From Hafnia alvei (GTDB taxonomy: Bacteria > Pseudomonadota > Gammaproteobacteria > Enterobacterales > Enterobacteriaceae), in assembly GCF_034424155.1 (NCBI RefSeq), contig NZ_CP139992.1:674012-698011 (forward strand): a stretch of DNA of 24,000 bases. The letters are read 5' to 3'. The first letter of the stretch is position 1; each line of letters starts with the position of its first letter. Positions 20,966 through 23,764 of the stretch are shown here, one piece after another. Made by a program: the position numbers and the translations under genes. The notes under the pieces were generated by a model. It searched no databases, was not told the origin of the DNA, and saw only the letters and a list, made by a program, of their open reading frames with translations.

Positions 20966-21700
20966 ATGGCTACGCCGCATATTAATGCCGAGATGGGTGA
21001 TTTTGCAGACGTTGTGTTGATGCCGGGCGATCCGCTGCGTGCAAAACACATTGCTGAAACTTTCCTGCAAGACGTCCGTCAGGTAAACAGCGTGCGCGGC
21101 ATGCTGGGCTTCACCGGTACTTATAAGGGGCGTAAGATCTCCGTTATGGGTCACGGTATGGGTATCCCATCATGTTCTATCTATGCGAAAGAGCTGATCA
21201 CTGATTTTGGCGTGAAAAAAATCATCCGCGTGGGTTCATGTGGCGCAGTGCGCATGGACGTTAAACTGCGTGACGTGGTTATTGGCATGGGGGCATGTAC
21301 TGACTCTAAAGTTAACCGTCTGCGCTTCAAAGACCACGACTATGCAGCGATTGCAGACTTCGACATGGTGCGTAACGCATCTGACGCAGCGAAAGCCAAA
21401 GGTATCAATGCACGCGTAGGTAACATCTTCTCTGCTGACCTGTTCTACACGCCAGACCCGTCTATGTTTGACGTGATGGATAAGTACGGCATTCTGGGTG
21501 TGGAAATGGAAGCTGCGGGTATCTACGGCGTTGCCGCTGAATTTGGTGCGAAAGCGCTGACTATCTGCACCGTGTCTGACCACATTCGTACCCACGAGCA
21601 GACCACTGCTGAAGAACGCCAGACCACGTTCAACGACATGATTGAAATCGCGCTGGAATCCGTTCTGCTGGGCGATGCGGAAGAAGCTGCTGCTAAGTAA
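20966..21700 (+). CDS. deoD: Purine nucleoside phosphorylase
   Basis: [27 protein letters not shown]...[16 protein letters not shown] is near-identical to E. coli DeoD. The C-terminus carries a short Ala/Glu extension. Confidence 0.95.
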
Positions 21701-21723: not shown

Positions 21724-21750
21724 AAAGGCTCCTGAATAGGGGCCTTTTTT
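21724..21750 (+). terminator. Intrinsic terminator of the deo operon
   Basis: The sequence is aaAGGCTCCtgaataGGGGCCTttttt: a 7-bp stem with one G-U pair, followed by a T-run. Confidence 0.8.
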
Positions 21751-21755
21751 GTATT

Positions 21756-22005
21756 CGGTGATGGTGTAAGGTTTTGTTCGCCTCTCGTTTATGTGGCGAT
21801 GGTGATAGGTTTCGTTCGCCTATCCGCTGCTGTATTCACATACAAACTGGGTAGAAGGCGACCGATGAGGGGCGCCAGCGCGCGCCCCTTCAATCCTCGC
21901 GCTTTTATCCGAGACGCCATCTCCGCTACGGTTTGGTATCGCCCATCCAGGGCGCCCCAAACTCCGCCGGTACATCCCTGTACCGGCGGCTCTCCCAACC
22001 AAGAC
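21756..22005 (-). repeat. Structured GC-rich element 'arm L'; GGA-loop hairpins read on the minus strand; candidate CsrA-binding sRNA module
   Basis: Arm L is collinear with the reverse complement of arm R (22099-22292). Shared blocks are aggtttcgt.cgcc, gccagcgcgc, ctcgcgctttt, cggttt and atccctg..ggcggctc. On the minus strand the hairpins are ccgccgGUACAGGGAUGUaccggcgg (21989-21964) and CGCCCuGGAuGGGCG (21954-21940). Arm L also contains a 38/39-bp tandem duplication at 21757-21833. Confidence 0.6.
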
Positions 22006-22050
22006 TTAAACAATTAAAAGAAAAATAGAGAGATAAAATAAAAAGATAAG

Positions 22051-22077
22051 AAGACAAAAATGTCTTTTGTCTTTTTT
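22051..22077 (+). terminator. Small AT-rich hairpin plus T-run in the core between the two arms
   Basis: The sequence is AAGACAaaaaTGTCTTttgtctttttt. The stem is weak at 6 bp. It could insulate the two arms or act as a terminator, and the reverse strand forms a similar hairpin. Confidence 0.35.
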
Positions 22078-22098
22078 ATGTTTAAAGAGTGCATTTTA

Positions 22099-22292
22099 GA
22101 GCCGCCAGCAGGGATGCTGGTGGCAGGTTGAGGGCGTACAGGATGTGCGCTCCGAAACCGGTCGGGCAAACGACTCGGTAAAAAGCGCGAGAGTGAAGAG
22201 GTTGCGCGCTGGCAACCTCTTCTCGGACGCCTACATCAGCGGTTTCATGGAAACATAAAAGCTAACCGGCGTACGAAACCTTTCACTGTTCT
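22099..22292 (+). repeat. Structured GC-rich element 'arm R'; GGA-loop hairpins read on the plus strand; candidate CsrA-binding sRNA module
   Basis: The plus-strand hairpins are GCCGCCAGCagggatGCTGGTGGC (22101-22124, one G-U pair), GCGUACaggauGUGCGC (22134-22150, one G-U pair) and GAAGAGGTTGCgcgctgGCAACCTCTTC (22195-22222). The arm is followed by the bidirectional terminator at about 22306-22340. Confidence 0.6.
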
Positions 22293-22295
22293 AAT

Positions 22296-22340
22296 ATAAA
22301 TACGAACAAGGCGACACACTGGCCGCCTTGTTTGTATTTG
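22296..22340 (-). terminator. Bidirectional intrinsic terminator downstream of galP
   Basis: The stem is ACAAGGCG (22306-22313) with CGCCTTGT (22324-22331). T-rich tracts follow on both strands: tttgtatttg on plus and ttcgtatttatatt on minus. Confidence 0.7.
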
Positions 22341-22357
22341 TGTTACATCAATTTAAA

Positions 22358-23764
22358 TTACTTAGACCCAATCTTACGTAGTGGTTTGCCCTGCATCAGA
22401 TTACGTTCAATGTGTTCCAGAGAGATATTCTTAGTCTCAGGGATCAGCGCTAACGTAATGAAGATGAAGATAACGTTCAGACCGGCATAGACCCAGAAGG
22501 TATGTGCGCTACCCAGAGAGTTCAGCATGGTCAGGAAGGTTGCCCCGACGATCATGTTGGCAATCCAGTTGGTGGCGGTTGAACAGGTGATACCAAAATC
22601 ACGGCCTTTCAGCGGCTGAATTTCAGAACACAGCACCCAAATCAGTGGACCGGCGCTCATGGCAAAACCGACGATGAAGATTAGCAGCATGATAACGGCA
22701 AAGTACTGAGCAAACACGGAGCTGATACCGATGTTCATCATGGTACCTAAGGTGCCCATACCTAAAGCCATCACGATAAAACCGAGAATCAAGGTTGGCT
22801 TACGACCCCAGCGGTCAACTAAACCGATGGCGATAAAGGTGGCTAATACGTTCACCAGACCCACGATAACCGTGCCCCACATCTGCTGTGAGGTGCTGGC
22901 AAAGCCCGCTAAGTCGAAGATTTTTGGTGCGTAATACATAATGACGTTCATGCCGGTGAACTGCTGCATCACCTGTAACAACACGCCAAGATAAACGGCA
23001 CGGCGGAAGTTTTTATTGTTAATAAACAATGCCCAGCCGCTTTGTTTCACTTTCAGACTTTCACGAATTTCATCCAGTTCACTTTTGGCTTGTTCACTGG
23101 TATCACGCAGTTTTTCTAATACACGGCGGGCTTTTTCATCACTGCCGCGTGCGGCTAACCAGCGTGGGCTATCTGGCAGGAAGAACACACCTATCAATAG
23201 CAGAATAGCTGGAATAGTGATGACACCCAGCATCCAGCGCCATGCGCCGGTGTAGCTGAAAGCGGTGTCAGAAAGATAAGCGGCCAAAATACCGATGGTG
23301 ATCATCAACTGGTACATTGAAATCATACTGCCGCGAATCTTTTCTGGTGCAATTTCAGAAAGATAAATCGGAGCCGTATAAGATGCGATACCTACCGCTA
23401 ATCCCAGCAGTACGCGAGAAAGGATCAGAATTTCAACATCAGGTGCGAAGGCAGAAAACAGGGAGCCAACCACAAACAGGATTGCGCCAATCATCAAGCT
23501 GTATTTACGGCCAATGCGGAAGTTCAACCAGCCGCTACCCACTGCGCCGACTGCCGCACCAAACATCATAGAGCTCACAACCCATTCTTGTTGAGAGCTG
23601 GTGATTTGAAACGTCTCGCTGATAAATGGCAAAGCACCAGCGATAACACCAATATCCAGCCCGAACAGTAAGCCTGCCAGCGCAGCTAAAAAGCAGACAA
23701 AGAACGTTAGACTGGCATTTGAACGGGTCTTGCGAACCGATTGTGTACTCACGGTAGTACTCAT
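22358..23764 (-). CDS. galP: Galactose:H+ symporter (MFS sugar porter)
   Basis: The 468-aa ORF contains [29 protein letters not shown] and PESPRW-type motifs (LPDSPRW), and ends [20 protein letters not shown]. It is collinear and highly similar to my recollection of E. coli GalP. Confidence 0.93.

What the first reader, a model, noticed from the sequence alone, without database searches (positions are those of the whole stretch)
21756..22292. Inverted pair of ~190-250-bp GC-rich structured elements around an AT-rich core, each backed by a terminator: a possible divergent sRNA gene pair
The deoD|galP convergent gap is about 657 bp, far longer than two terminators require. It contains arm L (21756-22005), an AT-rich core of about 93 bp (22006-22098), and arm R (22099-22292). 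Arm L and the reverse complement of arm R are collinear over their whole length at roughly two-thirds identity by eye. Shared blocks are AGGTTTCGT.CGCC, GCCAGCGCGC, CTCGCGCTTTT, CGGTTT and ATCCCTG...GGCGGCTC. When each arm is read outward from the core, it begins with two GGA-loop hairpins and runs into an intrinsic terminator. Arm R on the plus strand reaches the bidirectional galP terminator at about 22306-22340. Arm L on the minus strand reaches the deoD terminator stem at 21724-21750, whose minus-strand U-tract is poor. The core has its own small hairpin with a T-run (22051-22077). This symmetry is what two back-to-back sRNA genes of about 240-280 nt sharing a divergent promoter region would look like. 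One caveat: I could not identify convincing sigma-70 -35/-10 pairs in the core. The best -10-like hexamers are TATGTT (22077-22082, plus strand) and TATTTT (22027-22022, minus strand). I also saw no UvrY/GacA-type TGTAAG-N6-CTTACA box.
Basis: partly seen in the sequence, partly recalled or inferred. Interest (0 to 1): 0.8.

Follow-up and report, generated by a model that had tools for sequence, protein, structure and literature searches.

The report
Dispersed inverted-pair GGA-hairpin repeat in Hafnia
The two mirrored GC-rich elements between deoD and galP are real, but they are one copy of a roughly 500-bp palindromic repeat found at two dozen or more sites in Hafnia genomes, and each arm carries two hairpins that look like binding sites for the global RNA-binding regulator CsrA.

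Summary
Window 21790-22024 (minus strand) and 22067-22298 (plus strand) are two homologous ~230-nt arms, head to head around a 42-nt AT-rich dyad.

This is not a locus-specific sRNA gene pair. The same pair occurs at 27 or more distinct Hafnia loci. It is always head to head and never tail to tail. It lies mostly just downstream of convergent genes.

Each arm has three hairpins that stay 98-99% paired across 12-18 different stem sequences. The loops of the first two are nearly invariant: ACAGGGAUGU and CAGGAUG, which match CsrA/CsrB-type sites.

The arms are divergent relatives of the Rfam TwoAYGGAY motif (RF01731). Sister arms at other loci pass its threshold; the window arms do not.

G·U pairs persist in up to 32 arms, while A·C mismatches are only singletons.

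No conserved promoter, UvrY/GacA box or arm-owned terminator exists. At this locus the arms change faster than neighbouring synonymous sites, which suggests exchange between copies.

The best reading is a dispersed repeat of TwoAYGGAY-like RNA modules, probably CsrA-binding. How it is transcribed and whether it is mobile are unresolved.

The parts
21724..21747 (+). deoD intrinsic terminator. It is outside the repeat and belongs to the flanking gene.
   Evidence: Terminator scan.
21752..21789 (-). Extra copy of the ~38-nt terminal module (GGCGAACAAAACCTTACAC...AATA) stacked outside arm L.
   Evidence: Direct repeat D1 21742-21779/21780-21817. Pattern match at 21764-21782. Such stacked modules are common at other loci.
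21790..22024 (-). Arm L, subtype B. The sense strand is the minus strand.
   Evidence: nhmmer 204 bits, profile positions 2-233. Alignment A3.
21964..21989 (-). Arm L hairpin P1: 11-bp stem, loop GGGA. It reads GUACAGGGAUGU.
   Evidence: Sequence, fold, covariation.
21940..21954 (-). Arm L hairpin P2: CGCCC-UGGAU-GGGCG.
21868..21889 (-). Arm L hairpin P3: 8-bp GC stem, loop GCGCUG.
22025..22066 (.). AT-rich core between the arms. Its small dyad AAGAAGACAAAA/TTTTGTCTTTTT (22048-22059/22065-22076) runs into the lead of arm R.
   Evidence: I4, I8. Comparison of 45 cores.
22067..22298 (+). Arm R, subtype A. The sense strand is the plus strand.
   Evidence: nhmmer 231 bits, profile positions 2-233. 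TwoAYGGAY subthreshold match at 22055-22201, 31.7 bits.
22101..22124 (+). Arm R hairpin P1: 10-bp stem containing one G·U pair, loop GGGA (CAGGGAUG).
22132..22153 (+). Arm R hairpin P2: loop GGA. It reads GUACAGGAUGU and contains a U·G pair.
22195..22222 (+). Arm R hairpin P3: 11-bp stem, loop GCGCUG. It is preceded by the invariant block AAAAGCGCGAG (22181-22191).
22305..22332 (-). galP terminator hairpin. Its stem AAGGCG/CGCCTT is the same as a hairpin found just outside type-A arm ends at other loci.
   Evidence: Terminator scan. Regex census.

Best explanation
**What it is.** The feature is one copy of a multi-copy palindromic repeat that, as far as could be searched, is restricted to Hafnia. 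The propagated unit is the whole ~490-510-bp pair: a type-B arm, a short AT-rich dyad core of variable length, and a type-A arm (or, at some other loci, a type-C arm). The two arms always lie head to head.

**What each arm contains.** Each ~230-nt arm is a divergent TwoAYGGAY-type structured module. It starts with two adjacent hairpins whose loops carry GGA in a CsrA/CsrB-like context. A third GC-rich hairpin and a 3' domain ending ...CAC-N9-CATA follow.

**What is shown.**
- The family is repeated and dispersed.
- The architecture is fixed.
- The three hairpins covary.
- Selection acts on the outward (GGA-loop) single strand.
- The arms are related to RF01731.

**What is inferred.** The arms act as RNA, each folding on its own. 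The two GGA hairpins lie about 29 nt apart, a spacing I recall as falling within the range a CsrA dimer can bridge. Together they could give the dimer a two-site platform. The copies would then either titrate CsrA or bring neighbouring transcripts under CsrA control.

**What is unresolved.** It is not known where the outward transcripts start. They could come from a non-canonical promoter in the core, or from read-through across the core from the gene on the far side. It is also not known whether the element is still mobile.
For: **Repeat family**
- The three-block pattern gives 75 metagenome stretches, several on single large contigs.
- Hafnia paralvei ATCC 29927 carries the element at two further loci, L019 and L048, with unrelated flanks.
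- The arm profile finds 185 hits in 88 loci. These reduce to 27 or more distinct loci.

**Architecture**
- 61 adjacent arm pairs are head to head, 0 are tail to tail, and 33 are tandem.
- Arms that looked single have a diverged type-C partner, also head to head.

**Structure**
- P1, P2 and P3 are 98-99% paired with their own halves, against 54-62% when halves are swapped between copies. They have 18, 12 and 14 distinct 5' stems.
- Loops are nearly invariant.

**Strand**
- G·U events occur in up to 32 arms, while all 7 A·C events are singletons.
- The sense-strand minimum free energy is lower in 101 of 111 arms.

**Relation to a known motif**
- TwoAYGGAY scores 47.3 and 46.4 bits in sister arms, above the gathering score of 43. 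The window arms score 31.7 and 23.9 bits, both on the outward strands.
- TwoAYGGAY has been predicted to bind CsrA (PMC4333381).
- It is multi-copy in Psychromonas ingrahamii (supplement of PMC2864571).

- GUACAGGGAUGU matches the CsrA SELEX consensus RUACARGGAUGU (as I recall, Dubey et al. 2005).
- CAGGAUG is the CsrB repeat.
Against: - No conserved sigma-70 promoter sits at a fixed position, and no GacA/UvrY box is present.
- The arms have no terminator of their own.
- At the window locus both flanking genes have terminators before the element, so read-through should be low.
- If the whole pair were one transcript, the minimum-energy fold would be mostly arm-to-arm duplex (59% of pairs on average, 82% for the window plus strand). 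That would bury the GGA loops.
- Each arm has only two GGA sites. From memory, CsrB/CsrC carry roughly nine to twenty-odd.
- No expression or binding data could be obtained.
- G·T is also the mildest mismatch in single-stranded DNA, so the strand asymmetry does not by itself prove an RNA.
- Arms at one locus differ between strains more than synonymous sites do. That pattern fits repeat dynamics better than a conserved gene.
Confidence: 0.5

Rival explanations
1. The element is a selfish or commensal foldback element, like a MITE or a giant REPIN/BIME. On this view the hairpins are kept because a transposase or recombinase recognises them in single-stranded DNA. The GGA loops would then have nothing to do with CsrA, and the host gains nothing.
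For: - The element is multi-copy, dispersed and non-coding, with long inverted arms.
- Both ends finish ...CAC-N9-CATA. This is compatible with a CA terminus and a TA target, as in IS630/Tc1-type MITEs.
- Terminal modules are stacked in tandem.
- Two arm subtypes are always paired in inverted orientation. From my own knowledge, this resembles the Y and Z REPs of E. coli BIMEs.
- Copies are depleted from divergent-promoter gaps: 2 of 27 loci.
- Copies exchange sequence faster than the synonymous rate.
- Assembly contigs break inside the arms.
Against: - No empty site or insertion polymorphism was seen. All 15 Hafnia strains examined carry the element at this locus.
- No clear target-site duplication beyond the shared TA was found.
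- No partner transposase was found, although none was searched for systematically.
- The invariant parts are internal hairpin loops that match a known RNA motif, not the termini.
- Both arms show selection on their own outward strand. A single-strand DNA mechanism tied to one replication strand would favour one arm only.
Confidence: 0.25
2. The element is a 3'-end or insulator element comparable to ERIC or BIME. On this view it is co-transcribed with the convergent genes on either side and acts through its stable hairpins or its central AT-rich dyad. Possible roles are protection of mRNA 3' ends, two-way termination, or binding of a nucleoid protein or gyrase. CsrA is not involved.
For: - Of 27 loci, 15 lie between convergent genes, 10 between tandem genes and 2 between divergent genes. 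Copies are often only 6-90 nt from stop codons, which leaves no room for separate terminators.
- The core holds a small dyad followed by T-runs in both directions.
- The arms are very stable structures.
Against: - Transcripts entering from the flanks would carry the proximal arm in antisense. The strand that tolerates wobble pairs is the other one.
- No canonical terminator is predicted inside the arms.
- None of 45 cores has an IHF consensus site, against 0.6 expected from shuffles.
- This view does not explain the invariant GGA loops.
Confidence: 0.2
3. This is the first reader's reading in its strict form: two dedicated sRNA genes at this locus, transcribed divergently from promoters in the core and each ending at the neighbouring gene's terminator, possibly under UvrY/BarA control.
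For: - The outward strand is the one under structural selection.
- Arm R is followed on the plus strand by a GC hairpin and a T-rich tract.
Against: - The same unit is present at 27 or more loci.
- No promoter and no UvrY box is present, here or in 45 other cores.
- The minus-strand tail after arm L is poor.
- Other copies lack flanking terminators.
Confidence: 0.05

Closest known systems
TwoAYGGAY RNA motif (Rfam RF01731, clan CL00106; Weinberg et al. 2010, PMC2864571)
   Same: - Both have two adjacent hairpins with GGA-containing terminal loops, about 30 nt apart, on the same strand that Rfam models.
- A weak A/U-rich outer pairing is present.
- The motif is multi-copy within a genome; several copies are listed for Psychromonas ingrahamii.
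- Sister arms in the same Hafnia family pass the gathering score, at 47.3 and 46.4 bits against 43.
- The function of the motif is unknown. It has been predicted to bind CsrA (PMC4333381).
   Different: - The window arms score only 31.7 and 23.9 bits.
- Their loops read CAGGGAUG and ACAGGAUG rather than CAUGGAUG.
- The strong outer P1 stem described for the motif is not evident.
- The Hafnia module is about 230 nt long, with a third hairpin and a 3' domain.
- It always comes as a head-to-head pair around an AT-rich core. I did not see that arrangement mentioned in the TwoAYGGAY passages I read.
CsrB/CsrC/RsmX-Z CsrA-sequestering sRNAs
   Same: GGA lies in hairpin loops with CAGGAUG/CAGGGAUG contexts. 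The spacing between the two sites would suit a CsrA dimer.
   Different: - Each arm has only two GGA hairpins.
- No GacA/UvrY upstream box is present.
- The arms have no terminator of their own.
- There are dozens of genomic copies rather than one to three genes.
- No Rfam match to CsrB, CsrC or the Rsm families was found.
Bacterial interspersed mosaic elements, REPINs, ERIC and other MITE-like intergenic repeats
   Same: - All are dispersed, non-coding and palindromic.
- Two unit subtypes are paired in inverted orientation around a linker.
- They sit in 3' intergenic regions, especially between convergent genes.
- Accessory modules are stacked, giving a mosaic make-up.
- Sequence is exchanged between copies.
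   Different: - The units are about ten times longer than REPs.
- They have no GTAG/CGTC head.
- The element found no DNA match in any complete E. coli genome or in the plasmid collection.
- The internal loops, not the ends, are the most conserved parts.
- No transposition footprint was demonstrated.

Membership tests
TwoAYGGAY RNA (RF01731) | Covariance-model score at or above the gathering threshold of 43 bits. | tested here: not met
   The window arms score 31.7 bits (22055-22201, +) and 23.9 bits (21931-21988, -). Arms of the same repeat family at other loci score 47.3 bits (L136) and 46.4 bits (L192) and pass. The type-B arm of L136 scores 37.8 bits.
TwoAYGGAY RNA (RF01731) | Two adjacent hairpins whose terminal loops contain AYGGAY. 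| tested here: inconclusive
   Two adjacent GGA-loop hairpins are present in both arms. However, the loops read AGGGAU and CAGGAU (arm R) and AGGGAU and CUGGAU (arm L), not AYGGAY.
TwoAYGGAY RNA (RF01731) | A closing outer stem P1, which is often large (supplement of PMC2864571). | tested here: inconclusive
   In the window, cmscan aligns an outer stem but with many non-canonical pairs. Only a U-run/A-run pairing is plausible. The type-C arm of L136 has a short closing stem.
CsrB/Rsm-type CsrA sponge sRNA | Many GGA motifs (from memory, roughly five to more than twenty) in loops and single-stranded stretches. | tested here: not met
   Each arm has two GGA hairpin loops.
CsrB/Rsm-type CsrA sponge sRNA | A promoter dependent on GacA/UvrY, with the upstream box TGTAAG-N6-CTTACA. 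| tested here: not met
   None of 45 distinct cores has an exact box. No sigma-70 promoter is found in the window region or at a fixed position in 106 arms.
CsrB/Rsm-type CsrA sponge sRNA | Binding of CsrA. | not testable with these tools
   This needs a gel shift or CLIP. So far only the sequence resemblance to the SELEX consensus and the CsrB repeat is available.
MITE (miniature inverted-repeat transposable element) | Terminal inverted repeats, small size, no coding capacity and many copies. | tested here: met
   - The inverted arms are 75% identical.
- The unit is 477-533 bp.
- Open frames are not conserved in strand or frame. Their only homologues are 5 'hypothetical proteins'; the four that carry a species name are from Hafnia alvei.
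- The family occupies 27 or more loci.
MITE (miniature inverted-repeat transposable element) | Target-site duplication and presence/absence polymorphism. | tested here: inconclusive
   - Both ends finish in CATA, so a TA duplication is possible. No longer duplication was seen.
- All 15 strains carry the element at this locus.
- Edwardsiella and Enterobacillus lack the deoD|galP adjacency, so no empty site could be examined.
REP/BIME | GC-rich palindromes of 20-40 nt with a GTAG or CGTC head, linked to a RAYT transposase. | tested here: not met
   The units are about 230 nt long and contain three separate hairpins, with no GTAG/CGTC head. No search for a RAYT was made.

The most novel reading that the evidence does not exclude
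A dispersed repeat has spread a high-affinity, two-hairpin CsrA docking module to dozens of 3' intergenic sites in Hafnia. The copies together would act as a distributed CsrA sponge, or would wire neighbouring operons into the Csr regulon. This would also give the orphan TwoAYGGAY motif a function in a culturable enterobacterium.
Probability: 0.2. Interest if true: 0.8.

Novelty: new variant of a known kind. Interest (0 to 1): 0.6.

Why it matters
TwoAYGGAY has been an orphan RNA motif since 2010. As far as the papers searched here show, its link to CsrA rests only on a computational prediction.

Hafnia alvei is easy to culture. The motif occurs there in a strict and unusual layout: head-to-head pairs at two dozen or more fixed loci, with clear strand-specific structural selection. 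That makes the open question directly testable.

If the arms bind CsrA, this would be an example of a repeat family distributing binding sites for a global post-transcriptional regulator. If they do not, the family is still, as far as I could find, an undescribed enterobacterial mosaic repeat. It breaks assemblies, it gets miscalled as 'hypothetical proteins', and it evolves by exchange between copies.

Tried and rejected
- **Other collections.** A distant BLAST of the element against all complete E. coli genomes and against PLSDB plasmids found nothing.
- **Rfam on the window.** At gathering thresholds, Rfam found nothing in the whole window.
- **First genome scan.** The first genome contigs pattern (20 specified bases) was too loose. 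Distribution outside Hafnia is therefore not settled.
- **Consensus folding.** RNAalifold on the 111-arm MAFFT alignment missed P1-P3, because stem lengths differ between subtypes. Per-hairpin counts were used instead.
- **Promoters.** Searches for sigma-70 promoters gave only weak (8 of 12) matches in a minority of cores and nothing at a fixed position. By eye I also found no convincing sigma-54, sigma-32 or extended -10 match in the conserved lead.
- **Core motifs.** No IHF consensus and no GacA/UvrY box was found in the cores.
- **Empty site.** An empty-site search through galP orthologues failed. Edwardsiella and Enterobacillus have galP next to other genes, and every Hafnia locus is occupied.
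- **Coding reading.** A coding interpretation of the arm ORFs (74 aa on each strand) was rejected. Frames are not conserved, and the only homologues are five unannotated Hafnia ORFs.
- **Internal terminator.** The invariant AAAAGCGCG block reads CGCGCUUUU on the antisense strand, so an intrinsic terminator inside the arms was considered. The only partner is a 5-6-bp stem with a 15-nt loop, and it competes with the much stronger P3 hairpin. This idea was not adopted.

Full report
**1.

The deoD stop is at 21700 and the galP-like MFS transporter gene ends at 22358 on the minus strand, so the gap is 657 bp. The reverse complement of the right arm aligns with the left arm at 75% column identity. 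Read outward from the core, each arm starts with two hairpins that have GGGA or GGA loops. The arms fold much better than shuffled sequence, with z-scores of -7.2 and -4.2. The flanking terminators are at 21724-21747 (+) and 22332-22305 (-), and no sigma-70-type promoter is detected.

**2. It is one copy of a dispersed family.**

The element has no match in E. coli genomes or in plasmids. A pattern built from blocks shared by the two arms found the same inverted pair twice in Hafnia paralvei ATCC 29927 (L019, L048). Those copies are 77-80% identical to the window over about 500 bp and have unrelated flanks.

The galP-like protein is identical in many Hafnia alvei genomes, so the window is H. 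alvei. A stricter three-block pattern found 75 metagenome stretches. Of these, 23 come from one sample (Ga0308156) and 14 from another (Ga0308172), often several on one large contig. Some share flanks with the Hafnia loci.

A profile of seven arms finds 185 matches in 88 loci, most of them full length. Clustering by flanks gives at least 27 distinct genomic sites. A spurious 74-aa ORF across arm L has five database homologues, all unannotated ORFs; the four that carry a species name are from Hafnia alvei.

**3. The architecture is strict.**

Adjacent arms are head to head 61 times, tail to tail never, and tandem 33 times. The tandem cases are mostly 3'-end fragments stacked on the outside. The window's extra module at 21752-21789 is one of these.

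There are arm subtypes. Type A is represented by the window's right arm and type B by its left arm. The sampled B+A pairs measure 477-533 bp. Arms that looked single have a more diverged type-C partner in the same head-to-head position. The unit that has spread is therefore the whole pair, not a single arm.

The core varies in length and contains a small AT-rich dyad and short GACAAA-type tandem repeats. Both outer ends finish ...CAC-N9-CATA.

Of the 27 sites, 15 lie between convergent genes, 10 between tandem genes and 2 between divergent genes. Many lie within 6-90 nt of stop codons.

**4. Structure is under selection, on one strand.**

Across 111 distinct arms (alignment A3), the three hairpins P1, P2 and P3 have 18, 12 and 14 different 5' stem sequences. 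They are still 98-99% paired with their own 3' halves. Pairing drops to 54-62% when halves are swapped between copies. The loops hardly vary: GGGA or GGA closed by ACA/UGU in P1, and GGA variants in P2.

Wobble pairs show which strand matters. G·U pairs on the outward strand include variants carried by 32, 29, 15, 12, 6 and 4 arms. All seven A·C mismatches, which would be G·U on the other strand, are singletons. The outward strand also has the lower folding energy in 101 of 111 arms.

Local hairpins are kept, but complementarity between the two arms is only about 75%. Selection therefore acts on each arm folding alone, not on a long foldback. Nevertheless, a transcript spanning the whole pair would, at equilibrium, fold mainly arm to arm.

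**5. The arms are related to a known motif.**

In the window, Rfam gives only subthreshold matches to TwoAYGGAY (RF01731), at 31.7 and 23.9 bits against a gathering score of 43. Both matches are on the outward strands. In other copies of the same family, the type-C arms pass the threshold at 47.3 and 46.4 bits, and a type-B arm reaches 37.8 bits.

TwoAYGGAY was found in 2010 in human gut metagenomes, Clostridiales and gamma-proteobacteria. Its function is unknown and it has several copies in Psychromonas ingrahamii. It was later predicted to bind CsrA.

CAGGAUG is the repeat of CsrB. The 29-nt spacing of the two GGA motifs lies within the range a CsrA dimer can bridge.

**6. Some evidence argues against a simple sRNA gene.**

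- No promoter-like site sits at a fixed position in 106 arms.
- None of 45 cores has a GacA/UvrY box or an IHF site.
- The arms contain no canonical terminator, and most copies have no room for one outside.
- In 15 Hafnia strains the locus is always occupied, but the arms are only 79-96% identical where third codon positions of deoD and galP are 95-99% identical. Whole hairpins are swapped for variants seen at other loci. This points to exchange between copies rather than to purifying selection on one gene.

**7. Verdict.**

The outward-strand reading is supported by independent evidence. The object, however, is a member of a dispersed inverted-pair repeat family built from TwoAYGGAY-like modules, not a dedicated gene pair of this locus.

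I consider RNA-level action with CsrA-type binding the most likely function. A selfish foldback or REPIN-like element and an ERIC/BIME-like 3'-end element remain serious rivals. Transcript mapping and CsrA binding assays in Hafnia alvei would decide between them.

Noticed in passing
window 22305-22332, compared with L138 4224-4245, L143 46-67, L177 913-937 and L179 8372-8396: The galP terminator hairpin has the stem AAGGCG/CGCCTT. The same stem occurs in a hairpin just outside type-A arm ends at other loci. There it is followed by GCTCGGACGCC, the start of a partial arm, rather than by a T-tract. The galP terminator may therefore derive from the repeat.
   Followed up: partly
L127, L128 and L130, outer end of the arm corresponding to window 21752-21800: In some Hafnia strains the outer end of arm L is replaced by 7-8-nt microsatellites (CACCATT, GAACCATT, GCACCATT) with different copy numbers. 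The gap length consequently varies from 629 to 716 bp between strains.
   Followed up: partly
window 22181-22191 and 22205-22209; alignment A3 columns 115-119 and 135-139: The invariant GCGCG in AAAAGCGCGAG can pair with CGCGC at the top and loop of P3. Two independent double changes keep this pairing: GAGCG:CGCTC in L131/L135 and GCGCA:TGCGC in L202. This pairing competes with P3 or forms a pseudoknot with it. It is unexplained.
   Followed up: partly
L212 (Logan ERR163851 contig); also L152, L154, L171, L183 and L200: Short-read contigs often end inside the arms or right beside them. Several break at profile position 66-67. The repeat therefore fragments Hafnia assemblies.
   Followed up: no
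L130 4633-4899; proteins P0121-P0125: Gene callers have annotated 'hypothetical proteins' of 73-114 aa across the arms and core in some Hafnia genomes (the ORF called in L130 is 88 aa). These are most likely miscalls.
   Followed up: partly
L121-L130, about 400-1470 in locus coordinates (speA-metK gap, outside the window): A ~1-kb divergent intergenic region between speA and metK carries called ORFs of 59-100 aa with no Pfam match. It contains no arm of this family. It was not examined further.
   Followed up: no
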